Part shown: in pieces, positions 9,706-42,656 of the stretch
How the letters are laid out: the number at the start of each line of letters is the position of its first letter
Position numbering within the stretch: the stretch's first letter is position 1
Origin: a virus
Direction: 5' to 3' (one strand)
IMG/VR virus record: IMGVR_UViG_3300045988_023742
Coordinates: 37,448-101,447 of that record
DNA: 64,000 nucleotides
The notes under the pieces: generated by a model
What the model was told of the DNA's origin: nothing
The model's database searches: none
The model's input: the letters and a program-made list of their open reading frames with translations, nothing else
Position numbers and translations under genes: made by a program

Positions 9706-9905
9706 TTTCTTCGCCTTTTAATGTTTACATCTAAGTTATTTTCTTTAATAAGTCTATGAGCTATAACACTTTCTAGTTTATGAGGGATAGAGATATGTCT
9801 TCCCTTATCATTAACATATATAGCATGGTCACCACTATGTCTACTATAAGAGAATCCATTCTTCTCTACTACCCTTATAAACTCTAATTGTGTGTATTGC
9901 TTCAT
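9702..9905 (-). CDS. hicA: HicA-like mRNA interferase (RNase toxin fold)
   Basis: 67 aa. ...KNGFSYSRHSGDHAIYVNDKGRHISIPHK...I.HRLIKE matches the HicA pattern G(F/W)...GSHh.....vP.H. Confidence 0.55.
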   Translation of the reverse strand: MKQYTQLEFIRVVEKNGFSYSRHSGDHAIYVNDKGRHISIPHKLESVIAHRLIKENNLDVNIKRRRK

Positions 9906-10630
9906 TTATACTTAGGATTATCAGGCTGTTCAGGATTTGTATTATCCCCATACACAGCCTTAAATTTTTCAAAATCACAGTACTTTATCTTGGTAATAAC
10001 CCTCTCTCCGTTTCTAAACCTAAGACCACAGGTAGTTCTAAGAACTAAGCCCTCTGCATTAAGGTCTTTATCTTCAGAAATCTTAGACTTAAAGCCTTTC
10101 TTAACAAACTCTACAGCCTGTGGAATAGTCATATAGCCAATAAGAGGAACCATAGGTACATTACATTTCTTAGCAATATCTTCACAGTCTTCTCTTTTAA
10201 GCCACCAGTCATTAATCTTGACATCAAAAAGAATGAAATCTACATCCTTGCTTATATACTTTCCACCACACTTTTGAATGCCTGCACCATAGCCTTCACC
10301 ATATATACATACAGTATCTTCAGGTGTCAATACAGGAAATACTTTAGCCCAGTCTACCTTGAAGAAAATACTTTCAAGCTTCTTAACAAGCTTACTAGGA
10401 AGCTCTGCTCTATTAGTTCGACCCTTGATAGTCACACCATAAATCCAAGGTTCTTTACCTTCTCCTGCTACCATAGTTACATAGATTCTGATGTTAGTGC
10501 CATCAATCTTCTCTGTACATTCCCAAAGGCAATCCTTTAAATAACTGAACTCTTCACAAGTATACTGTGAGGGAATAATAACATTCTTACCATCCCTCTT
10601 GAATAATGTATTAATTTTCTGATATTCCAT
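9902..10630 (-). CDS. ATP-dependent RNA ligase (Rnl2-like nucleotidyltransferase)
   Basis: Motif I EKIDGTN, motif III IYGEGYG, motif IV AEGLVLR, motif V ITKIKY. At 242 aa it is too small for a typical DNA ligase. Confidence 0.65.
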   Translation of the reverse strand: MEYQKINTLFKRDGKNVIIPSQYTCEEFSYLKDCLWECTEKIDGTNIRIYVTMVAGEGKEPWIYGVTIKGRTNRAELPSKLVKKLESIFFKVDWAKVFPVLTPEDTVCIYGEGYGAGIQKCGGKYISKDVDFILFDVKINDWWLKREDCEDIAKKCNVPMVPLIGYMTIPQAVEFVKKGFKSKISEDKDLNAEGLVLRTTCGLRFRNGERVITKIKYCDFEKFKAVYGDNTNPEQPDNPKYK

Positions 10631-30338: not shown

Positions 30339-31124
30339 TTACTCAATGCCTTTAAACAATGTAGGCAAACTACCATATATAGGAAGCTTACCATCCCATT
30401 TATCAATCCACTGCTGCTTAAGAATCATAGGAGTCAAAGCCTGTGTTCTAAGTCTATTAGCTTCTGCTTCAGCCTGTGCTGCAACTACCTTTTTCTCTGC
30501 CTCTGCCTTTACTACAGCTAACTCATTCTGAGCCTTTTGTGCCTTTTGAATCGCAGCATTTTTGGCATTAACTGCATCAACAATAGACTGAGGATACTTC
30601 AATCCTGAAGTAAGTTGTTCTAGCTGAAAATTCTCCTTGAGCAATGCTTTAGACAGATGTGCTTCAATAGCCTTCTCTACCATATCTCTGTTTGATACAA
30701 TCTCATCAGTAGTATACTTATTGAGCTGGATTCTAAAGGCATCTTTTACATAGTTAAAGAGAGTTCCATTGATTACATCTTTCAGTTCCTTCCTATACTT
30801 CTTGAATACCTGAGGTGACTTACCATCAGCAATCTTCAATGAAATAGTAGGGTCAATACTAAACTCTGAACCATCCTTTGCATTAATTGTGAAAGCAGGA
30901 TAGTCTACTGTCTGGACATAAGTAGGATACTCATAAACCTGCTCAGTGAATGGATTATACCACACTGCACCAGTAACCAAAGATACATCATCTACACCCT
31001 TGTCAGAGCCATAGAGATTCACTTTAATACCTTCACAACCTGCATCTACTCTCTCATAACCACATGAGGACATTCCCAACATGGTAAATACTGCCATAAG
31101 GCACATAATTACTTTACTCTTCAT
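30339..31124 (-). CDS. SPFH/band-7 family lipoprotein
   Basis: Lipobox MLGMSSC and an Ala/Glu/Lys-rich coiled C-terminal half typical of SPFH proteins. Confidence 0.5.
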   Translation of the reverse strand: MKSKVIMCLMAVFTMLGMSSCGYERVDAGCEGIKVNLYGSDKGVDDVSLVTGAVWYNPFTEQVYEYPTYVQTVDYPAFTINAKDGSEFSIDPTISLKIADGKSPQVFKKYRKELKDVINGTLFNYVKDAFRIQLNKYTTDEIVSNRDMVEKAIEAHLSKALLKENFQLEQLTSGLKYPQSIVDAVNAKNAAIQKAQKAQNELAVVKAEAEKKVVAAQAEAEANRLRTQALTPMILKQQWIDKWDGKLPIYGSLPTLFKGIE

Positions 31125-31769: not shown

Positions 31770-32168
31770 TTAATCTCCAAGGATATTATAGCTAAAGCCT
31801 ATAGCACCCATATCATGAGCAATGAGTTCACAATGCTTCTTGATTCTAGCATCTTCTGACATTGTGTCCCATACTCTGATAAGTTTGCCTTTAACCTTGG
31901 CAATAACCTTGTTGTACTTAGGACTTGTTGATTCTTCAAGCATAGCTTCATAAGCTTCTTGAGACATCTTCAATACCTGTTTTGCAGGCATTGACTTTCT
32001 TGTCCTAAATGTAATAACCTCAGGACCTTTGTCCTTCTTTGATTTGTAACTCTTAAAGAGCATCTTATGCTCTTCAGTTAACTCTTCTGGTTTGTTTTCA
32101 GCCACCTGCTGGCTTACCATAATACTTCCTGGAAGTACTAAGATAAGACTCAATTTTGGTTCTATCAT
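31770..32168 (-). CDS. hypothetical protein
   Basis: 132-aa ORF. A terminator hairpin follows. Confidence 0.45.
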   Translation of the reverse strand: MIEPKLSLILVLPGSIMVSQQVAENKPEELTEEHKMLFKSYKSKKDKGPEVITFRTRKSMPAKQVLKMSQEAYEAMLEESTSPKYNKVIAKVKGKLIRVWDTMSEDARIKKHCELIAHDMGAIGFSYNILGD

Positions 32169-32171
32169 AAA

Positions 32172-32513
32172 TTAGTTGTAAATGTCATTGTCTGCACCCT
32201 TCTTCACCTTCTCCTTAAGGATTTCCTTTATAACTTCAAGGAACTTTGCCTTAGATATTGACTTTGCAGTATCCATAAGTGCCATAAACTCTTTTGGAGG
32301 CATAGCAATCATTACAGAGATGATAACAGTCGATACAAGAAGAGCACTCTTTCCAGAGAAGCCTTTAGTGAGGTTTACTACATCCTCAATCTTAACATTC
32401 TCTTCTTCGTACTGTTTCTTGTTCTCTTTATAAGCTGACTTAAATGCTTCAAGTACCTTCTTGATGTCTTCTTCATTGATGATAGACATCTGGTTTTTTT
32501 TGTTTGTTGCCAT
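32172..32513 (-). CDS. hypothetical protein
   Basis: 113-aa ORF directly downstream of the tRNA-like array. Confidence 0.45.
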   Translation of the reverse strand: MATNKKNQMSIINEEDIKKVLEAFKSAYKENKKQYEEENVKIEDVVNLTKGFSGKSALLVSTVIISVMIAMPPKEFMALMDTAKSISKAKFLEVIKEILKEKVKKGADNDIYN

Positions 32514-32563
32514 AATTTTGTTTATTAAAATTAATATGAAATTAATAAATGTTTTCTAAAAAT

Positions 32564-32675
32564 AGCTACTTAATTGATACATTTGAAGTGTATTGCATTA
32601 ACCACTATGCTAATTATCCATTCAGAAGAATAATATAGGACTTGAACCTATGAAATAATAGTATTGTAAGTAGCT
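32564..32675 (-). ncRNA. circularly permuted tRNA-like element with UCA anticodon, closed by module M7 helix
   Basis: Order on the minus strand: T-arm ATAGG-TTCAAGT-CCTAT, acceptor 3' ATTATTC, 8-nt linker, acceptor 5' GGATAAT, D-arm GCAT/ATGC, anticodon arm ATACA-CTTCAAA-TGTAT. Confidence 0.6.
32659..32671 (-). repeat. box M7 ACTTACAATACTA; helix 32667-32675 with 32564-32572
   Basis: AGCTACTTA is the reverse complement of TAAGTAGCT. Encloses the permuted tRNA-like element. Confidence 0.75.
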
Positions 32676-32679
32676 GAAG

Positions 32680-32805
32680 TAAGGCAGAGAAGAATCGAAC
32701 TTCTGTTACAGGTACTAAATTTTTATTAATATAAATTAGTATTGTAAGTATCATTAGATACTAATATTATTATAACCTGTGTCCTGACCACTAGACGACT
32801 GCCTT
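32680..32805 (-). ncRNA. tRNA-like gene (Glu-type scaffold) whose anticodon stem closes a 61-nt region carrying module M6
   Basis: AAGGCAG-TC-GTCT-AGTGGTCA-GGAC-A-CAGGT [61 nt] ACCTG-TAAC-AGAAG-TTCGATT-CTTCT-CTGCCTT-A. Confidence 0.6.
32737..32749 (-). repeat. box M6 ACTTACAATACTA; local hairpin 32757-32762 with 32747-32752
   Basis: AGTATC-TAAT-GATACT lies immediately 5' of the box. Confidence 0.7.
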
Positions 32806-32825
32806 ATGAAATTGGCACTATTCTT

Positions 32826-32899
32826 TATGCACTGATGGGATTGAACCATCTCTGATTGTACCAAAAAACAATTGTCCTAACCAATTAGACTAAACGCAA
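32826..32899 (-). tRNA. tRNA-Gln(UUG)-like with 8-nt anticodon loop, enclosed by module M5
   Basis: Stem ATTGT/ACAAT closes the loop TTTTTGGT (8 nt). D and T arms are canonical. Confidence 0.45.
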
Positions 32900-32903
32900 A
32901 ATT

Positions 32904-32916
32904 TACTATTGTAAGT
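32904..32916 (-). repeat. box M5 ACTTACAATAGTA; helix 32914-32921 with 32812-32819
   Basis: TTGGCACT is the reverse complement of AGTGCCAA. Encloses the Gln-like tRNA. Confidence 0.75.
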
Positions 32917-32925
32917 GCCAAAAAG

Positions 32926-33036
32926 TGGGGAAGGTAGGACTCGAACCTACATAGTGATAGTTTATGAAACCTATTGCTTATTGATTTAGTATTGTAAGTA
33001 TCTAAGATACTATTAAACCATTTTAGCTACTTCCCC
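32926..33036 (-). ncRNA. tRNA-like gene interrupted after the D-arm by module M4
   Basis: 5' part GGGGAAG-TA-GCTA-AAATGGTTTAA-TAGT. 3' part GTAGG-TTCGAGT-CCTAC-CTTCCCC-A. Acceptor is perfect; no clean 5-bp/7-nt anticodon arm. Confidence 0.5.
32987..32999 (-). repeat. box M4 ACTTACAATACTA; local hairpin 33005-33011 with 32997-33003
   Basis: AGTATCT-T-AGATACT lies immediately 5' of the box. Confidence 0.7.
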
Positions 33037-33053
33037 TTGTATAGTCACTATTT

Positions 33054-33126
33054 ATATACATGTTAGAATCGAACTAACTACACTTGAATTACAAATTCAA
33101 TGCTCTACCAAATGAGCTAATGCTAT
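33054..33126 (-). tRNA. tRNA-Thr(UGU)-like with weak acceptor stem, enclosed by module M3
   Basis: Perfect D, anticodon (TTGAA-TTTGTAA-TTCAA) and T arms. Acceptor ATAGCAT/ATGTATA pairs at only 4 of 7 positions. Confidence 0.45.
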
Positions 33127-33139
33127 TAGTATTGTAAGT
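33127..33139 (-). repeat. box M3 ACTTACAATACTA; helix 33137-33143 with 33043-33049
   Basis: AGTCACT is the reverse complement of AGTGACT. Encloses the Thr-like tRNA. Confidence 0.75.
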
Positions 33140-33165
33140 GACTGAATATCTGTAGACACTAAATT

Positions 33166-33239
33166 ATCACATTGTTGGAATCGAACCAACTACTATCTGC
33201 TTAAAAGGCTGATGCTCTAACCAAATGAGCTAAATGTTA
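33166..33239 (-). tRNA. tRNA-Lys(UUU), enclosed by box-helix module M2
   Basis: D-arm GCTC/GAGC, anticodon loop CTTTTAA, T-arm GTTGG-TTCGATT-CCAAC. Mismatches A29:A41 and A2:G71. Confidence 0.65.
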
Positions 33240-33242
33240 TAA

Positions 33243-33255
33243 TAATATTGTAAGT
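33243..33255 (-). repeat. box M2 ACTTACAATATTA; helix 33253-33260 with 33153-33160
   Basis: TAGACACT is the reverse complement of AGTGTCTA. Encloses tRNA-Lys. Confidence 0.75.
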
Positions 33256-33265
33256 GTCTAATGGT

Positions 33266-33296
33266 GAATGTAGGAGGTCTCTCTCCTCCTACATTC
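33266..33296 (-). other. perfect 12-bp GC-rich hairpin between units M1 and M2
   Basis: GAATGTAGGAGG-AGAGAGA-CCTCCTACATTC. No U-tract on either strand. Confidence 0.6.
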
Positions 33297-33299
33297 TAT

Positions 33300-33369
33300 T
33301 GATACTTGTTGTTGAACATTAATACGCTATTCTAATCTATGAAATACAGTTATAATGTTGTAAGTATCA
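33300..33369 (-). ncRNA. structured non-tRNA unit enclosed by module M1
   Basis: Outer helix TGATACTT/AAGTATCA and inner helix AACATTA/TAATGTT. No T-loop or D-loop signatures. Confidence 0.3.
33353..33365 (-). repeat. box M1 ACTTACAACATTA; helix 33362-33369 with 33300-33307
   Basis: TGATACTT is the reverse complement of AAGTATCA. Confidence 0.7.
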
Positions 33370-33377
33370 TTAGGTCC

Positions 33378-35201
33378 TTAAAGGACATTTTCTCTCACTA
33401 TGTCATATCTATTACTCCTGAACAATGACTGTAAAGGAGTATAAACATCCATAATATCCATATCTTTGAAGTTAGTTAAGAACTGCTCAATCTGTGCTAC
33501 ATTAGCAGGGATATAAATCATGTTCTCAATACCTTCAAATCTGTTGATAGAAGCACTTCTGAAGCCCCAATCACCATCTACATCAATAGCTACAATATAT
33601 GGCTTAAATCCAAAGTATCTTTGACACTTCATCATAAAGTCATTCATTGAAGCTTCAGGAGACCACAATGAGTTCCACTCACCATCACTGATGATAGTCC
33701 ATACAGGATAGTTCTTCAGAGCATCAAGTATCTGAGGGTTATTCTGACACTCCCTATGCAAATCATCAGGTATTTTACTTATGTTAGTACCACCACCTTG
33801 GAATACTGCATTACAGAAGTTCCTAATAGATTGATAGTTCTCACAGAAGCTCTTCTTAGGGTCAACAAAAGGAGTCTGCTTTACCTTTACTGTTTCACTT
33901 CTGATGAAAGAGTTTACAGAGTTATTCTTTCTGTCTATACAAGTATGCCAATGACTATTAGTATTGAAGAAACCAAGTAAGTTTCTACCATCATCATCTG
34001 GGTTCTTACATAAACATACAGAAGCTAAGAATGTAGCAAAGTTGAAAGGTTTACCTCTCATAGAACCTGAATCATCTATGATTACAAGACTATTATAAGG
34101 AAGATTGACCTTAGTCATGAAGGTTTCAAGCTTTAGCTCATCTACATTGTCATTACAGATGTCATTATATAGCTCTTTGAAATTAGTAGCTCCTGTATTG
34201 ACCTTAGCCTGCTTTGCAACTTTCTTCAACTTGATTTTATCCTCTTCTGTAGCTTGCCCCTGTCTAACTTTTTCCTCTAGAACTCTCTGTTCCTCTTGTT
34301 TAGACTCCTTGTACTTCTCCCATTCAGTGAGCCAAGGCTGGAACTTAGAATATTTATCCTTCTCAGTATCTTTAATCTTACTGTAAAGGATTCTATTCTT
34401 AACTCTAAACCTTGCCTGTGAAGGAAGCTTGTCAAACCAATCAATAAATGATTGTTTGTCAAACTCATTGATTTTACCTGTAGAGAATAGTACTGACTCA
34501 AGGTCACCATTGTAATCCTTTCTCCACTTCCTATAGTCCTTGAAGTTAGCATAGTTCTCATTTACTTCATACTCCCAACCCATAAGTTCTGAGAGCATTA
34601 TAAGCAACTTAACCTTATCTTCCATTACCTTTTTAGTCTCAGGAAGCATCTTGCTATGACCACTTCTTTTGCTTACTCTAGGAAGTGTCAAGAATTTAGC
34701 AACAAGAGTTTTATTGAAAGGATTATTACCATTGATAACCTTATAGAGATAGCTTGCAATAACCTCCCTATATTTTGCCTCAGCAAAGAGATTATGTATT
34801 CTAATAACTCTAGAGCCTTTAGTCTGTACTCTATTTCTGAACAGCAAATCAAAGCAAGTATATTCATTGAATAAACCTGCTTCAAGGAACTTCACAAATT
34901 GAGCTTGATGCTTATTCCACATCCAATCAAGAACTACTTGGAAACCTTCTCTATTGGCATTACCACCACTATCCTTCTTAACACCCTTAAAGATGTTATG
35001 CTGTCTAGCTGTAATATCACCAATTGAGAAAAGTAAACTAAAGAACATTTGCTTATGTTCTTTATTTCCTCGAACTTCTGACCAGCAAGCATCAAGTAAT
35101 GATGCATCAATTGTGTTGCCTACACTCTGAAAGAGTTTAAGGCAATTTCTTAATCCATAAAAAGGATTATCGTTACTTTTGTTTAACTTTACCTGTACCA
35201 T
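33378..35201 (-). CDS. vWA/MIDAS-domain protein with helical N-terminal domain (DUF2828- or TROVE/Ro60-like architecture)
   Basis: VIIDDSGSM (DxSxS MIDAS), later GGGTN and ISDGE. N-terminal roughly 370 aa carry the LLDACW...FFSLLFSIGD...DWMW...FDLLF pattern. Confidence 0.6.
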   Translation of the reverse strand: MVQVKLNKSNDNPFYGLRNCLKLFQSVGNTIDASLLDACWSEVRGNKEHKQMFFSLLFSIGDITARQHNIFKGVKKDSGGNANREGFQVVLDWMWNKHQAQFVKFLEAGLFNEYTCFDLLFRNRVQTKGSRVIRIHNLFAEAKYREVIASYLYKVINGNNPFNKTLVAKFLTLPRVSKRSGHSKMLPETKKVMEDKVKLLIMLSELMGWEYEVNENYANFKDYRKWRKDYNGDLESVLFSTGKINEFDKQSFIDWFDKLPSQARFRVKNRILYSKIKDTEKDKYSKFQPWLTEWEKYKESKQEEQRVLEEKVRQGQATEEDKIKLKKVAKQAKVNTGATNFKELYNDICNDNVDELKLETFMTKVNLPYNSLVIIDDSGSMRGKPFNFATFLASVCLCKNPDDDGRNLLGFFNTNSHWHTCIDRKNNSVNSFIRSETVKVKQTPFVDPKKSFCENYQSIRNFCNAVFQGGGTNISKIPDDLHRECQNNPQILDALKNYPVWTIISDGEWNSLWSPEASMNDFMMKCQRYFGFKPYIVAIDVDGDWGFRSASINRFEGIENMIYIPANVAQIEQFLTNFKDMDIMDVYTPLQSLFRSNRYDIVRENVL

Positions 35202-35219
35202 TCTGCTAATGTTTTATTT

Positions 35220-35232
35220 TATTTTTGTAAGT
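35220..35232 (-). promoter_or_regulatory. box M8 ACTTACAAAAATA in vWA-gene leader; helix 35230-35236 with 35171-35177 encloses the start codon
   Basis: CGTTACT is the reverse complement of AGTAACG (codons 8-10). The ATG at 35201 lies inside the enclosed 47 nt. Confidence 0.5.
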
Positions 35233-35288
35233 AACGTAGTTAGGATATTCTTTTCTATCTTTGAACTATATATGTCTTCCTTATACTA

Positions 35289-35732
35289 CTAGAAAGTTTC
35301 AGTTTCACTCATAGCTGAAAGCTCTGCTTCAAGCTCCTTAATCTTATCTTCAGGTGACTTCTGAGATTCTTTAAGAGCTTTAAGTTTAGCTGTAAGTTCA
35401 GCTTTCTTCTGAGCATTTTCCTCAACTTCCATTCTATGCCTCTTGTAACCTATTACTAGGTTTACAAGCTCCTTCTGTTCCTTAGCAGTATCTAACTGCC
35501 TTGCATTAGAATTGCTTGCAACCCACTCATCTTGACTTTCAAGCTGCTTAATCTTGTTAGATAAAGCAAGTCTGATGTTATTAAGAGAGTTGATTGTAGT
35601 AGTGTGGAGCAACTCAACTACATTGATAGGTGTGCCAAGCTTAGAATTTACTGTGTCGTTGCTAAGCAACATAGTAAGAAGCAATGAACACATCTTATCA
35701 AAGTGTTCTTTTGTGAAATTAATCTTTGCCAT
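35289..35732 (-). CDS. hypothetical protein (coiled-coil C-terminus)
   Basis: 147-aa ORF. Its start overlaps the stop of the upstream small ORF (TAATG). Confidence 0.45.
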   Translation of the reverse strand: MAKINFTKEHFDKMCSLLLTMLLSNDTVNSKLGTPINVVELLHTTTINSLNNIRLALSNKIKQLESQDEWVASNSNARQLDTAKEQKELVNLVIGYKRHRMEVEENAQKKAELTAKLKALKESQKSPEDKIKELEAELSAMSETETF

Positions 35733-40930: not shown

Positions 40931-41003
40931 AGGCTATGTGGTGTGATGGTTTGCATATCACACTGTCAATGTGAATGATAGGGTTCAATTCCCTCATAGT
41001 CTG
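40931..41003 (+). tRNA. tRNA-Asp(GUC)
   Basis: Anticodon arm TCACA-CTGTCAA-TGTGA. Ends uncertain by +/-1 nt. Confidence 0.7.
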
Positions 41004-41007
41004 CAAT

Positions 41008-41098
41008 GGAGGTTTAAGCCTAATTGGTAAGGCAGTAGTCCTGAAAACTACTAGTAATCACTAATAGTGATGTGCAAGTTCGAGTCTTGTAGCCTCCT
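41008..41098 (+). tRNA. tRNA-Ser(UGA), class II
   Basis: Long variable arm (ATCACT/AGTGAT). Anticodon loop reads CCTGAAA, i.e. C at position 33. Confidence 0.65.
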
Positions 41099-41625: not shown

Positions 41626-41697
41626 GGGTAGATAGTTTAATGGTAAAACCCTAGTCTCCAAAACTAGAAGATGTGAGTTCGAGTCTTACTCTATCTG
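41626..41697 (+). tRNA. tRNA-Trp(CCA)
   Basis: Anticodon arm CTAGT-CTCCAAA-ACTAG, D-arm GTTT/AAAC. Confidence 0.8.
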
Positions 41698-41701
41698 CAA
41701 T

Positions 41702-41774
41702 GGGAAAGTAGCAAAGATGGTCTATGCAGAGGACTGAAAATCCTTGGATGTAAGTTAGATTCTTACCTTTCCCA
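41702..41774 (+). tRNA. tRNA-Phe(GAA)
   Basis: Acceptor GGGAAAG/CTTTCCC, anticodon loop CTGAAAA. Confidence 0.8.
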
Positions 41775-42493: not shown

Positions 42494-42579
42494 GCCTCCA
42501 TGTTGGAATAGGTATACAAGAGGCACTTAAAATGCCTTGAGCAGTAATGCTCATGTGGGTTCAAGTCCCACTGGAGGTA
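42494..42579 (+). tRNA. tRNA-Leu(UAA), class II
   Basis: Anticodon arm AGGCA-CTTAAAA-TGCCT, variable arm GAGCA-GTAA-TGCTC. Confidence 0.8.
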
Positions 42580-42584
42580 CTTAT

Positions 42585-42656
42585 GCTTCCTTAGTTCAAT
42601 GGATAGAACAAGACACTTCTAATGTTTAAATGAAAGTTCGATTCTTTCAGGAAGTA
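42585..42656 (+). tRNA. tRNA-Arg(UCU)
   Basis: Acceptor GCTTCCT/AGGAAGT, anticodon loop CTTCTAA. Confidence 0.8.

What the first reader, a model, noticed from the sequence alone, without database searches (positions are those of the whole stretch)
32564..32675. Circularly permuted tRNA-like element carrying a UCA (opal-reading) anticodon
Read 5' to 3' on the minus strand, the order is:
- box M7
- T-arm ATAGG-TTCAAGT-CCTAT
- acceptor 3' strand ATTATTC
- 8-nt linker TTCTGAAT
- acceptor 5' strand GGATAAT (all 7 positions pair, with one G:U)
- TA
- D-arm GCAT-AGTGGTTA-ATGC
- anticodon arm ATACA-CTTCAAA-TGTAT
- TAAGTAGCT, which pairs back to AGCTACTTA at the start of the unit

All tertiary-contact nucleotides are present (U8, A14, G18G19, the T54-C56 equivalents). 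No T-arm exists downstream. The RNA ends therefore fall in the variable-loop region, and the acceptor stem is closed by a loop.

This topology is known for permuted tRNA genes of the red alga Cyanidioschyzon. A closed acceptor with T-arm before D-arm is also the layout of bacterial YrlA Y RNAs. I am not aware of it in phage tRNA arrays.

The loop CUUCAAA gives anticodon UCA. That is the anticodon used by opal suppressors and by code-4 tRNA-Trp.
Basis: partly seen in the sequence, partly recalled or inferred. Interest (0 to 1): 0.8.

Follow-up and report, generated by a model that had tools for sequence, protein, structure and literature searches.

The report
Permuted tRNA mimic in crAss-like phage
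A gut crAss-like phage carries a genuine, conserved tRNA-shaped RNA gene whose halves are in swapped order. It is the last of a row of "armed" tRNA-like RNAs encoded beside a ring-type (Ro60-like) protein gene, so it most likely acts as a tRNA mimic in an RNA-protein particle rather than as a stop-codon-reading tRNA.

Summary
On the minus strand, 32675-32564 folds as closing helix, T arm, loop-closed 7-bp acceptor, D arm, anticodon arm (UCA), closing helix. This is the minimum-energy fold. 17 diverged relatives support it: 96% of cells pair and 15 of 30 pairs show compensatory changes.

It is not an opal suppressor by present evidence. TGA is a normal stop codon here, and terminase and portal are intact under the standard code. 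Among nine near-identical relatives the anticodon is TTT, TCA, GTT, GTC or GAT. Other relatives have lost the whole anticodon arm but keep the acceptor, T and D arms.

The arm flanks or interrupts every unit of a 7-unit RNA array. It also encloses the start codon of the adjacent 607-aa gene. That protein is an alpha-solenoid plus vWA domain, and its best PDB match is bacterial Ro60/Rsr, though weakly. Gene and array form one module that is absent from phage cr116_1.

Best reading: a YrlA-like tRNA-mimic RNA of a Ro60-like particle, working like that family but failing its membership tests. Main rival: a two-piece functional tRNA.

The parts
32667..32675 (-). Arm strand M1 (AGCUACUUA), the 5' strand of the closing helix.
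   Evidence: Sequence. MFE fold. RNAalifold. The motif recurs 7 times in 32660-33365. 150 of 180 such motifs in 27 loci have a complementary AGUR+NNN partner, against 64 +/- 5.6 after shuffling.
32652..32666 (-). Single-stranded 'V region' CAAUACUAUUAUUUC. It holds the conserved UACAA of the arm and ends in C (32652), the Levitt-pair (C48) equivalent.
   Evidence: The C before the T stem is kept in 16 of 17 aligned units. Arm consensus aGnYACUUACAAua.
32635..32651 (-). T arm ATAGG-TTCAAGT-CCTAT.
   Evidence: 100% of cells paired, 3 of 5 pairs with compensatory change.
32628..32634 (-). Acceptor 3' strand ATTATTC.
   Evidence: 99.1% of cells paired, 4 of 7 pairs with compensatory change. The pairing covaries even against a relative with 99% protein identity: AGATAAT/ATTATCT in L102.
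32620..32627 (-). Linker or loop TTCTGAAT closing the acceptor. T32627 sits at the discriminator position.
   Evidence: The linker is 3-12 nt long and not conserved. In 6 of 34 distinct permuted units it starts with N-CCA, against 2 of 74 standard tRNAs in the same loci; chance is 1.2%, P = 2.6e-6. This window's copy has no CCA.
32613..32619 (-). Acceptor 5' strand GGATAAT. The predicted RNase P site lies between 32620 and 32619.
   Evidence: The RNase P site is an inference from M. smegmatis YrlA (PMC4201824).
32595..32612 (-). U8-A9 plus the D arm GCAT-AGTGGTTA-ATGC.
   Evidence: 4 of 4 D-stem pairs show compensatory change. A14, G15 and G18G19 are present.
32577..32593 (-). Anticodon arm ATACA-CUUCAAA-UGUAU (anticodon UCA, 32586-32584). 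This part is optional and hypervariable.
   Evidence: Canonical 5-bp stem and 7-nt loop. The anticodon varies among close relatives (TTT, TCA, GTT, GTC, GAT) and distant ones (TGT, AGG, TAC, CAT, CGA, GAA, GAG, CAA). The arm is absent in 7 of the 17 aligned units.
32564..32572 (-). Arm strand M2 (UAAGUAGCU), the 3' strand of the closing helix. It is the last element of the module.
   Evidence: Homology with phage cr116_1 resumes exactly at 32563.
32558..32562 (-). U-run after the closing helix; possible terminator of the array.
   Evidence: The sequence AGTAGCTATTTTT is conserved in L001-L010. Its function is inferred.
32680..32805 (-). Unit 5: a tRNA-like gene (AAGGCAG...CTGCCTT-A). The arm is inserted as a hairpin in the anticodon-loop region: AGTATC 32762-32757, loop TAAT, GATACT 32752-32747, then TACAAT.
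   Evidence: Read. Conserved in L002, L004, L007, L009, L102-L117. Not called by ARAGORN or Rfam.
32813..32920 (-). Unit 4: arm strands TGGCACT (32920-32914) and AGTGCCA (32819-32813) flank a tRNA with an 8-nt anticodon loop (32826-32899).
   Evidence: In L002, L005 and L007 the cargo is replaced by non-tRNA sequence, but the arm is kept and covaries (TGGTACT/AGTACCA).
32926..33036 (-). Unit 3: a tRNA-like gene (GGGGAAG...CTTCCCC-A). The arm hairpin sits between the D arm and the anticodon arm: AGTATC 33011-33006, loop TTA, GATACT 33002-32997. The anticodon-like loop is UUUCAUA.
   Evidence: The acceptor covaries in relatives (GGGGAGG/CCTCCCC in L006, GGGGAAT/ATTCCCC in L012).
33043..33143 (-). 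Unit 2: arm strands AGTCACT and AGTGACT flank a tRNA (UGU anticodon, imperfect acceptor; Rfam 33055-33126).
   Evidence: In relatives the anticodon is TGT, GGT, TAT, CAT, GAT or TTT.
33154..33259 (-). Unit 1: arm strands AGACACT and AGTGTCT flank tRNA-Lys(UUU), 33165-33240.
   Evidence: In L001-L003 and L005 the same arm encloses a ~45-nt non-tRNA cargo.
33300..33369 (-). Unit 0: arm strands TGATACT and AGTATCA enclose a ~50-nt non-tRNA cargo. A conserved GC-rich hairpin follows at 33296-33266.
33378..35201 (-). Gene for a 607-aa alpha-solenoid + vWA (MIDAS DDSGS) protein, the candidate protein partner of the arms.
   Evidence: AF2 model, pLDDT 82.4. The best PDB match is D. radiodurans Rsr 2NVO: E 4.9e-5, full length, TM 0.31/0.35. 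Viral matches are VWFA/DUF7788 proteins (TM 0.51-0.64) and a TROVE protein. There are no Pfam, PHROG, NCBIfam or PDB-sequence hits. It lies next to arm arrays in 26 of 26 loci fetched by protein and in 11 of 13 loci fetched by DNA pattern that hold at least 3 M1 motifs on one strand.
35171..35236 (-). The same arm around the 607-aa gene's start codon: CGTTACT (35236-35230) + TACAAAA ... ATG (35201) ... AGTAACG (35177-35171, in codons 9-11).
   Evidence: It covaries in relatives: AGTTACT/AGTAACT in L013, TGTTACT/AGTAACA in L017, ATGTTACT/AGTAACAT in L020.
32564..35724 (-). The whole accessory module: most of the 147-aa ORF (35289-35732), the 607-aa gene and the 7-unit RNA array.
   Evidence: Phage cr116_1 (MT774389) is collinear on both sides (88-92% identity) and lacks exactly this 3,161-bp stretch.

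Best explanation
The element is a YrlA-like tRNA-mimic non-coding RNA. It is the terminal unit of an array of seven 'armed' tRNA-like RNAs transcribed with, and downstream of, a gene for a Ro60-like (alpha-solenoid + vWA) protein.

Each RNA has two modules:
1. A conserved arm: helix aGnYACU / AGURnC, with the single strand UACAA leaving the YACU strand.
2. A tRNA-like body.

The arm sits at different places on the body:
- at the acceptor end in standard-order units (units 1, 2 and 4; in unit 0 the arm encloses a non-tRNA cargo instead)
- as a capped hairpin in or beside the anticodon arm (units 3 and 5)
- at the variable-region or anticodon-stem position (unit 6, the finding)

In the last case the RNA's own 5' and 3' ends lie in the arm, and the acceptor is closed by a loop. 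That is why the gene looks circularly permuted.

Inferred mechanism:
- The 607-aa protein binds the arm, including the copy that encloses its own start codon (autoregulation).
- The acceptor/T/D 'top half and elbow' presents a tRNA shape to host tRNA-handling factors.
- The 7-bp acceptor hairpin can be opened by RNase P and trimmed to, or extended with, CCA, as shown for M. smegmatis YrlA.
- The anticodon arm is an optional, fast-changing add-on.

Shown: the structure, its conservation and covariation, the arm's ubiquity, the gene-array linkage, and the absence of recoding.

Inferred: protein binding, RNase P opening, and the cellular target.
For: - Fold and covariation of the unit.
- The module order is the same as in YrlA, next to the protein gene on the same strand (PMC4201824).
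- Arm pairing is real. 150 of 180 motifs have a complementary partner, against 64 +/- 5.6 after shuffling. 35 G-U pairs point to RNA of this strand.
- The arm is transcribed: host-type TTG..TAnnTTTG promoters lie just upstream of the first arm in L012, L016 and L021.
- The arm is not the published crAss middle promoter.
- Arms are kept and covary even where the cargo is replaced by non-tRNA sequence. So the arm itself is under selection.
- The arm encloses the protein's start codon, with covariation.
- The best PDB match of the protein is Rsr over its full length; all other hits cover the vWA domain only. A viral TROVE protein is among the BFVD hits.
- Gene and array co-occur and are gained or lost as one module.
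- Units without an anticodon arm keep a covarying acceptor, T arm and D arm.
- Phage Ro60 with adjacent Y-like RNAs has precedent (PMC4201824, PMC12135203).
Against: - No Rfam YrlA or Y RNA hit, even at E <= 10.
- The arm lacks the CGAA / GNCGAAN0-1G motif that bacterial and phage Ro60 use (PMC4201824, PMC12135203).
- The protein has no TROVE Pfam signal.
- The global TM-score to Rsr is only 0.31-0.35.
- The N-terminal domain alone matches only generic HEAT/ARM solenoids, E > 0.1.
- One array (L075) has no copy of the gene within 1.4 kb.
- Canonical anticodon loops and enriched N-CCA are more than a pure scaffold would need.
- No expression or binding data exist.
Confidence: 0.5

Rival explanations
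1. It is a true permuted tRNA gene that matures into a working two-piece tRNA. RNase P cuts 5' of G32619. The upstream piece is trimmed to, or given, CCA. The two pieces stay together through the acceptor stem, the closing arm (which acts like a class-II long variable arm) and the elbow. The molecule is charged and decodes; in this phage it would read UGA.
For: - 7-bp acceptor with a base at the discriminator position.
- Canonical 5-bp/7-nt anticodon arm with U33 and A37 in all units that have the arm, carrying at least 13 different anticodons.
- N-CCA directly after the acceptor 3' strand in 6 of 34 permuted units, against 2 of 74 ordinary tRNAs (P = 2.6e-6).
- Only the anticodon triplet varies while its flanks stay fixed.
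- Precedents: M. smegmatis YrlA is cut by RNase P and gains CCA in vivo (PMC4201824). Two-piece tmRNA arises from permuted ssrA genes (established knowledge).
- crAss-like phages often carry suppressor tRNAs, sometimes without recoding (PMC7886860).
Against: - The anticodon arm is cleanly lost in many lineages that keep the rest under selection.
- There is no TGA recoding, and TGA is a frequent stop.
- This window's copy has no CCA.
- The discriminator does not track the anticodon across relatives.
- A 15-nt single strand precedes the T stem, and the arm is bulky.
- No known example exists of a decoding tRNA split in the variable region.
Confidence: 0.2
2. The motif is a transcription signal, not an RNA arm. 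M1 (TACAAT as a -10-like box) would be a promoter for each small gene, and M2 (often followed by a T run) a terminator. The 'permuted tRNA' would then be a stand-alone tRNA-like decoy or fragment RNA without a closing helix or dedicated protein.
For: - TACAAT resembles a -10 hexamer and lies 4-12 nt before tRNA 5' ends and about 30 nt before the ATG.
- M2 is followed by T runs in several loci.
- crAss middle promoters were reported upstream of tRNA genes.
Against: - Covariation between bases upstream of the supposed -10 box and bases 38-214 nt downstream cannot be explained by a promoter.
- No -35 partner is found.
- Bacteroidetes promoters use TAnnTTTG, and so do the published phi14:2 middle promoters, not this motif.
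- Host-type promoters sit upstream of the first arm in three loci.
- In hairpin-type units M2 precedes M1 by only 3-4 nt.
Confidence: 0.1
3. It is a decaying leftover of a tandem tRNA duplication (the 3' half of one copy and the 5' half of the next) with no function.
For: - The permuted order is what such a deletion would give.
- The array is a fast-evolving region with defective tRNAs: a bad acceptor in unit 2 and an 8-nt loop in unit 4.
- tRNA-tRNA junctions score weakly with the unit's covariance model.
Against: - The unit is conserved in phages whose partner protein is only 50-66% identical, with compensatory changes in all four tRNA-type helices (acceptor, T, D and anticodon stems; the closing helix is invariant within this class).
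- The two 'halves' pair 7/7 with each other and covary together.
- Several independent permuted units occur per locus in other arm classes.
Confidence: 0.03

Closest known systems
YrlA-type bacterial and phage Y RNAs with Ro60/Rsr (S. Typhimurium, M. smegmatis, mycobacteriophages, Thermus phage phiLo Yrl1/2)
   Same: - The 5' and 3' ends form a protein-binding stem.
- Order: V region, T arm, acceptor stem-loop, D arm.
- tRNA tertiary nucleotides are kept, including the 15:48 pair.
- Several RNAs lie beside a gene for a solenoid + vWA protein on the same strand.
- A 7-bp acceptor, as in M. smegmatis YrlA, which RNase P cuts (PMC4201824).
- Phage examples exist (PMC12135203).
   Different: - No match to Rfam models.
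- The stem motif is aGnYACU-UACAA / AGURnC rather than CGAA-containing.
- Many copies carry a complete canonical anticodon arm with a changing anticodon.
- The same arm also flanks or interrupts ordinary-order tRNAs and the protein's own start codon.
- The protein shows no TROVE sequence signature and only weak fold similarity.
- The host phage is a crAss-like phage of Bacteroidales.
Circularly permuted tRNA genes of Cyanidioschyzon merolae and some archaea; split tRNAs of Nanoarchaeum
   Same: - The 3' half is encoded before the 5' half.
- The acceptor ends are joined by a short linker.
- The termini pair with each other.
- The same terminal helix also occurs inside other tRNA genes of the same genome, like BHB introns.
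   Different: - The terminal helix is continuous (7-9 bp) with no bulge-helix-bulge.
- No splicing endonuclease is known in bacteria or phages.
- Removing the hairpin from the interrupted units would not restore a normal tRNA.
- The break point lies in the variable region.
- The anticodon arm is dispensable.
Two-piece tmRNA from permuted ssrA genes (alpha-proteobacteria, cyanobacteria, some phages)
   Same: It is a bacterial precedent for a permuted tRNA-like gene. The T arm and acceptor 3' strand are encoded upstream of the acceptor 5' strand, and the gene matures into two base-paired pieces.
   Different: There is no tag reading frame or pseudoknots. ARAGORN, which looks for permuted tmRNA, calls nothing here. 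The element is about 110 nt rather than about 300 nt.
Phage suppressor tRNAs of crAss-like phages
   Same: UCA anticodon in a canonical loop. The phage group is known for suppressor tRNAs (PMC7886860).
   Different: There is no recoding in this genome. The gene order is not contiguous. The anticodon is not conserved among relatives.

Membership tests
YrlA / bacterial Y RNA | Module order: stem from the 5'/3' ends, V region, T arm, acceptor stem-loop, D arm, with tRNA tertiary nucleotides | tested here: met
   Compared with the description in PMC4201824.
YrlA / bacterial Y RNA | Match to the curated covariance models (Rfam YrlA / Y RNA families) | tested here: not met
   cmscan with permissive filters at E <= 10 on 32000-34000 and on 32540-32700 returns only tRNA.
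YrlA / bacterial Y RNA | Ro60-binding motif GNCGAAN0-1G / CGAA in the stem-bulge | tested here: not met
   There is no CGAA in 32558-32678. The arm consensus is aGnYACUUACAA / AGURnC.
YrlA / bacterial Y RNA | Encoded next to a Ro60/Rsr (TROVE + vWA) gene | tested here: inconclusive
   The adjacent 607-aa protein is a solenoid + vWA protein. Its best PDB hit is Rsr 2NVO (E 4.9e-5, full length) but TM is 0.31-0.35. There is no TROVE Pfam hit. The N-terminal domain alone matches only generic HEAT repeats.
YrlA / bacterial Y RNA | Bound by Ro60 in vivo | not testable with these tools
   Needs RIP or EMSA.
tRNA (RF00005) | Contiguous cloverleaf in the order acceptor, D, anticodon, T, acceptor | tested here: not met
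   Rfam reaches 31.5 bits only by deleting the T arm and mis-pairing the acceptor. ARAGORN gives no call.
Permuted tRNA gene (Cyanidioschyzon / archaeal type) | 3' half upstream of 5' half, with acceptor strands complementary | tested here: met
Permuted tRNA gene (Cyanidioschyzon / archaeal type) | Bulge-helix-bulge motif at the termini for the splicing endonuclease | tested here: not met
   The terminal helix is a continuous 9 bp with no 3-nt bulges.
Permuted tRNA gene (Cyanidioschyzon / archaeal type) | Circular intermediate and contiguous mature tRNA | not testable with these tools
   Needs RT-PCR across the junction, or RNA-seq.
Opal suppressor / code-4 tRNA-Trp | UCA anticodon in a canonical 7-nt loop | tested here: met
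   CUUCAAA, 32588-32582.
Opal suppressor / code-4 tRNA-Trp | In-frame TGA in phage genes (recoding) | tested here: not met
   TGA terminates 17 of 62 ORFs of at least 80 aa. TerL (750 aa) and portal (803 aa) are full length under code 11.
Opal suppressor / code-4 tRNA-Trp | Anticodon conserved among orthologues | tested here: not met
   Nine close relatives carry TTT x4, TCA x2, GTT, GTC, GAT. The arm is absent in others.
Two-piece (permuted) tmRNA | Tag-peptide reading frame and detection by ARAGORN | tested here: not met
   No tmRNA is called in the window.

The most novel reading that the evidence does not exclude
crAss-like phages carry a portable RNA-protein toolkit: a Ro60-like ring protein plus a battery of arm-tagged tRNA look-alikes built in three circular permutations of one architecture. 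The anticodon triplets of these RNAs are swapped rapidly between strains.

The RNAs would act in one of two ways:
- as programmable decoys or sensors for host anticodon-directed defence nucleases and tRNA enzymes, or
- after RNase P opening, as two-piece chargeable tRNAs. This window's copy would then be an opal suppressor that escapes every tRNA finder.
Probability: 0.25. Interest if true: 0.9.

Novelty: new variant of a known kind. Interest (0 to 1): 0.75.

Why it matters
- crAss-like phages are the most abundant viruses of the human gut, and their non-coding RNAs are almost unexplored.
- This locus would extend Ro60/Y-RNA-type particles, or a convergent analogue, to Bacteroidales phages.
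- It offers a natural series of circular permutations of one tRNA-like architecture.
- It shows anticodon triplets turning over between near-identical phages while the rest of the RNA is fixed. That pattern points to an arms race over tRNA recognition.
- It shows that standard tRNA finders miss three of the seven RNA genes in this array. This bears on the reported mismatch between suppressor tRNAs and recoding in these phages (PMC7886860).
- The arm motif gives a simple handle for finding all such RNAs and for pull-down experiments.

Tried and rejected
Searches that found nothing useful:
- ARAGORN and Rfam at gathering thresholds do not find the element as a whole.
- Rfam in E-value mode gives no Y RNA or YrlA hit.
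- The 607-aa protein has no hit in Pfam, NCBIfam, PHROGs, PDB sequences or a PDB profile search, and none by tblastn against 50,697 phage records.
- A profile search of 1.84 billion representatives found only 195 family members. The ten most distant full-length ones have no Pfam family that places them (no TROVE or DUF2828; one sub-threshold VWA match).
- A fold search with the N-terminal domain alone gave only generic solenoids.

Hypotheses considered and rejected:
- M1 as a sigma-70-type promoter: no -35 partner.
- M1 as the published crAss 'middle promoter': those are TTG..TAnnTTTG.
- TGA or TAG recoding.
- The arm hairpins in units 3 and 5 as introns: excising the hairpin leaves 20-30 nt of arm tail inside the tRNA, and there is no BHB.
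- Mobile MITE-like cassettes: the arm classes keep the same order across L001-L010.

Technical caveats:
- The 18-nt DNA pattern scan of metagenomes returned mostly chance hits. Only about 15 of 69 were real arrays.
- Covariance-model hits below about 50 bits are tRNA-tRNA junction artefacts, a known pitfall (PMC4201824).
Full report
**Context.** The window is a crAss-like phage. Parts are 86-89% identical to IAS virus and to uncultured phage cr116_1. It encodes DNA polymerase, primase, NrdD, rIIA, terminase and portal. The finding lies in an 864-bp intergenic stretch (32514-33377) on the minus strand, between a 113-aa ORF and a 607-aa ORF.

**The observation.**
- The closing helix is AGCUACUUA (32675-32667) pairing with UAAGUAGCU (32572-32564).
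- The T arm is at 32651-32635.
- The acceptor is ATTATTC / GGATAAT, joined by the 8-nt linker at 32627-32620.
- The D arm is at 32610-32595.
- The anticodon arm is at 32593-32577, with loop CUUCAAA.

ARAGORN does not call it. Rfam's tRNA model reaches 31.5 bits on 32563-32619 only by deleting its T arm. That confirms there is no T arm downstream. RNAfold gives exactly the proposed structure as the minimum-energy fold (-22.7 kcal/mol, z = -2.47).

**Comparative test.** I fetched three sets of related DNA:
- 26 loci through the neighbouring 607-aa protein
- further loci by DNA patterns
- loci by exact-protein look-ups

The unit is present as the last element of the intergenic array in all close relatives. 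It is also present in phages whose protein is only 50-66% identical. In an alignment of 17 distinct units:
- 96.3% of cells pair, against 30-41% for slid controls.
- 15 of 30 pairs carry compensatory changes.
- 0 of 500 shuffles reach the observed values.

RNAalifold independently predicts the closing helix, T arm, acceptor hairpin and D arm. The acceptor covaries even between phages with 99% identical proteins: GGATAAT/ATTATTC here, AGATAAT/ATTATCT in L102.

**The anticodon.** The UCA triplet is not a conserved feature.
- Among nine near-identical versions, the stem ATACA/TGTAT and the loop frame (C-T-NNN-A-A in eight of nine; L117 has A-T-NNN-A-A) are kept.
- The triplet itself is TTT (4), TCA (2), GTT, GTC or GAT.
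- More distant units carry TGT, AGG, TAC, CAT, CGA, GAA, GAG and CAA.
- In L001 (98% protein identity), L006-L010, L032, L049 and others the whole arm is cleanly absent. Their acceptor, T and D arms stay intact and covary.
- The phage does not recode TGA. TGA ends 17 of 62 ORFs. TerL (750 aa) and portal (803 aa), the markers used to detect recoding in crAss-like phages (PMC7886860), are full length under code 11.

**'Box M7' is half of an arm.** The motif YACTTACAA occurs seven times in 32660-33365 and once 30 nt upstream of the 607-aa gene's ATG, always on the gene strand.
- The bases just 5' of it pair with an AGUR+NNN sequence. That partner lies 38-214 nt downstream (133 cases) or a few nt upstream as a hairpin (19 cases).
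- The consensus is aGnYACU-UACAAua with uAGURnCu.
- 150 of 180 motifs have a perfectly complementary partner, against 64 +/- 5.6 (maximum 80) when the variable bases are shuffled among sites.
- 35 G-U pairs indicate pairing in RNA of this strand.
- It is not the published crAss middle promoter. In phi14:2 that promoter is the Bacteroidetes type TTG..TAnnTTTG.
- It has no -35 partner.
- In L012, L016 and L021 a host-type promoter sits immediately upstream of the first arm, so the arm is transcribed.

**One architecture, three topologies.**
- In units 1, 2 and 4 the arm flanks an ordinary-order tRNA. Unit 0 has a non-tRNA cargo.
- In relatives the same arm encloses non-tRNA filler and still covaries, for example TGGTACT/AGTACCA.
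- In units 3 (32926-33036) and 5 (32680-32805) the arm is a capped hairpin (AGUAUC-loop-GAUACU-UACAAU). It is inserted between the D and anticodon arms, or in the anticodon loop, of a tRNA-like gene with an open acceptor. Neither unit is found by the tRNA tools.
- In unit 6, the finding, the arm holds the RNA's termini and the acceptor is capped.

Units 3, 5 and 6 are thus circular permutations of the same object: a tRNA-like body carrying the arm. Other loci hold several permuted units in different arm classes or runs of hairpin-type units (L075). Anticodon turnover is seen in all unit classes.

**The neighbouring protein.** The 607-aa protein has no sequence-level family. It belongs to a small family of 195 representatives.
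- The AF2 model (pLDDT 82.4) shows an alpha-helical repeat domain followed by a vWA domain with a DDSGS MIDAS motif.
- The best PDB match is D. radiodurans Ro60/Rsr (2NVO): E 4.9e-5, 626 aligned columns. It is the only hit that covers both domains.
- However, TM is only 0.31-0.35.
- BFVD gives TM 0.51-0.64 to viral VWFA/DUF7788 proteins, plus a TROVE protein at E 3.9e-4.
- The N-terminal domain alone matches only generic HEAT/ARM solenoids.

True Ro60 homologues also superpose poorly: 5.8-6.5 Å between the phage, bacterial and frog proteins (PMC12135203). I therefore call homology inconclusive and the architecture Ro60-like.

**Linkage of gene and RNAs.**
- All 26 protein-fetched loci have arms at the gene's 5' end and arrays beside it.
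- Of the 13 pattern-fetched metagenome loci with at least 3 M1 motifs on one strand, 11 hold the gene next to the motifs.
- The arm encloses the gene's own start codon, with covariation across relatives. This is the usual signature of an RNA-binding protein that regulates itself (inference).
- Phage cr116_1 is collinear on both sides and lacks exactly 32564-35724: most of the 147-aa ORF, the gene and the array. The boundary falls at the last base of the finding's closing helix.

**Comparison with known systems.** YrlA Y RNAs have the same layout: stem from the termini, V region, T arm, acceptor stem-loop, D arm. They are encoded beside rsr in more than 250 bacteria and phages. The M. smegmatis YrlA, with a 7-bp acceptor, is cut by RNase P and receives CCA in vivo (PMC4201824). 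A Thermus phage Ro60 binds two adjacent Y-like RNAs and host PNPase (PMC12135203).

The present element works like this family on every structural count. It fails three membership tests: the Rfam models, the CGAA motif and a TROVE signature. So I do not file it as a member. The Cyanidioschyzon-type pathway is unlikely because there is no bulge-helix-bulge.

**The main rival.** The unit could be opened by RNase P and act as a two-piece tRNA. This deserves respect.
- The anticodon loops are canonical.
- Only the triplet varies.
- N-CCA follows the acceptor 3' strand in 6 of 34 distinct permuted units. It does so in only 2 of 74 ordinary tRNAs of the same loci (chance 1.2%, P = 2.6e-6). Ordinary tRNA genes of this phage do not encode CCA.
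- Against it stand the repeated loss of the anticodon arm with retention of the rest, and the absence of recoding.

The phage also encodes an Rnl2-superfamily RNA ligase-like protein 22 kb away. This fits an RNA repair or processing theme but proves nothing.

**Verdict.** It is wrong, or at least unsupported, on opal decoding. The larger finding is a previously undescribed accessory module in crAss-like phages: a Ro60-like protein gene plus an array of arm-tagged tRNA mimics with fast-changing anticodons.

Noticed in passing
window 32826-32899 (-): A tRNA with an 8-nt anticodon loop, UUUUUGGU. ARAGORN reports a 4-base anticodon 'tttg'. Relatives have 7-nt loops with TGG, CGG or TTG. It is either a +1 frameshift-suppressor-like tRNA or a defective copy.
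   Followed up: partly
window 32926-33036 (-) and 32680-32805 (-): Two tRNA-like genes interrupted by the arm hairpin (AGTATC-loop-GATACT-TACAAT). ARAGORN and Rfam miss both. The anticodon-like loop of the first is UUUCAUA, a second UCA in this array.
   Followed up: partly
window 33266-33296 (-): A strong GC-rich hairpin, GAATGTAGGAGG-AGAGAGA-CCTCCTACATTC, between unit 0 and unit 1. It is conserved with compensatory changes in relatives and has no U run. Its role is unknown.
   Followed up: no
window 9902-10630 (-): A 242-aa ORF with a Pfam RNA_ligase domain (PF09414, 65.9 bits; phrog_548 'RNA ligase'; weak Rnl2 similarity). It could take part in RNA repair or joining.
   Followed up: partly
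window 30339-31124 (-): An SPFH/Band-7 (prohibitin-like) gene about 1.4 kb downstream of the array, annotated as prohibitin family protein in IAS virus.
   Followed up: no
window 32564-35724: This 3,161-bp block (most of the 147-aa ORF, the 607-aa gene and the RNA array) is precisely absent from phage cr116_1 (MT774389), which is collinear on both sides. It is an accessory module.
   Followed up: yes
window 33055-33126 (-) and the same unit in L004, L005, L006, L116, L117: An ordinary-order tRNA with an almost fixed body but anticodon TGT, GGT, TAT, CAT, GAT or TTT in different phages. Anticodon switching is a property of the whole array, not only of the permuted unit.
   Followed up: partly
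L075 5420-6400 (-): A metagenome contig with an array of a standard unit, four successive arm-interrupted tRNA-like units and a permuted unit (anticodon AGG). No copy of the 607-aa gene lies within the 1.4 kb available upstream.
   Followed up: partly
window 42521-42648, 41651-41766, 40949-41067 (+): The covariance model built from the permuted units scores 29-47 bits on junctions between adjacent ordinary tRNAs (T arm of one, D arm of the next). This is a known false-positive type for YrlA-like models.
   Followed up: yes
L020 7130-7229: A unit in which the arm helix (AGACACT/AGTGTCT) appears to replace the acceptor stem of a tRNA-Lys-like body. The D, anticodon and T arms are present, but there are no acceptor strands.
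   Followed up: no
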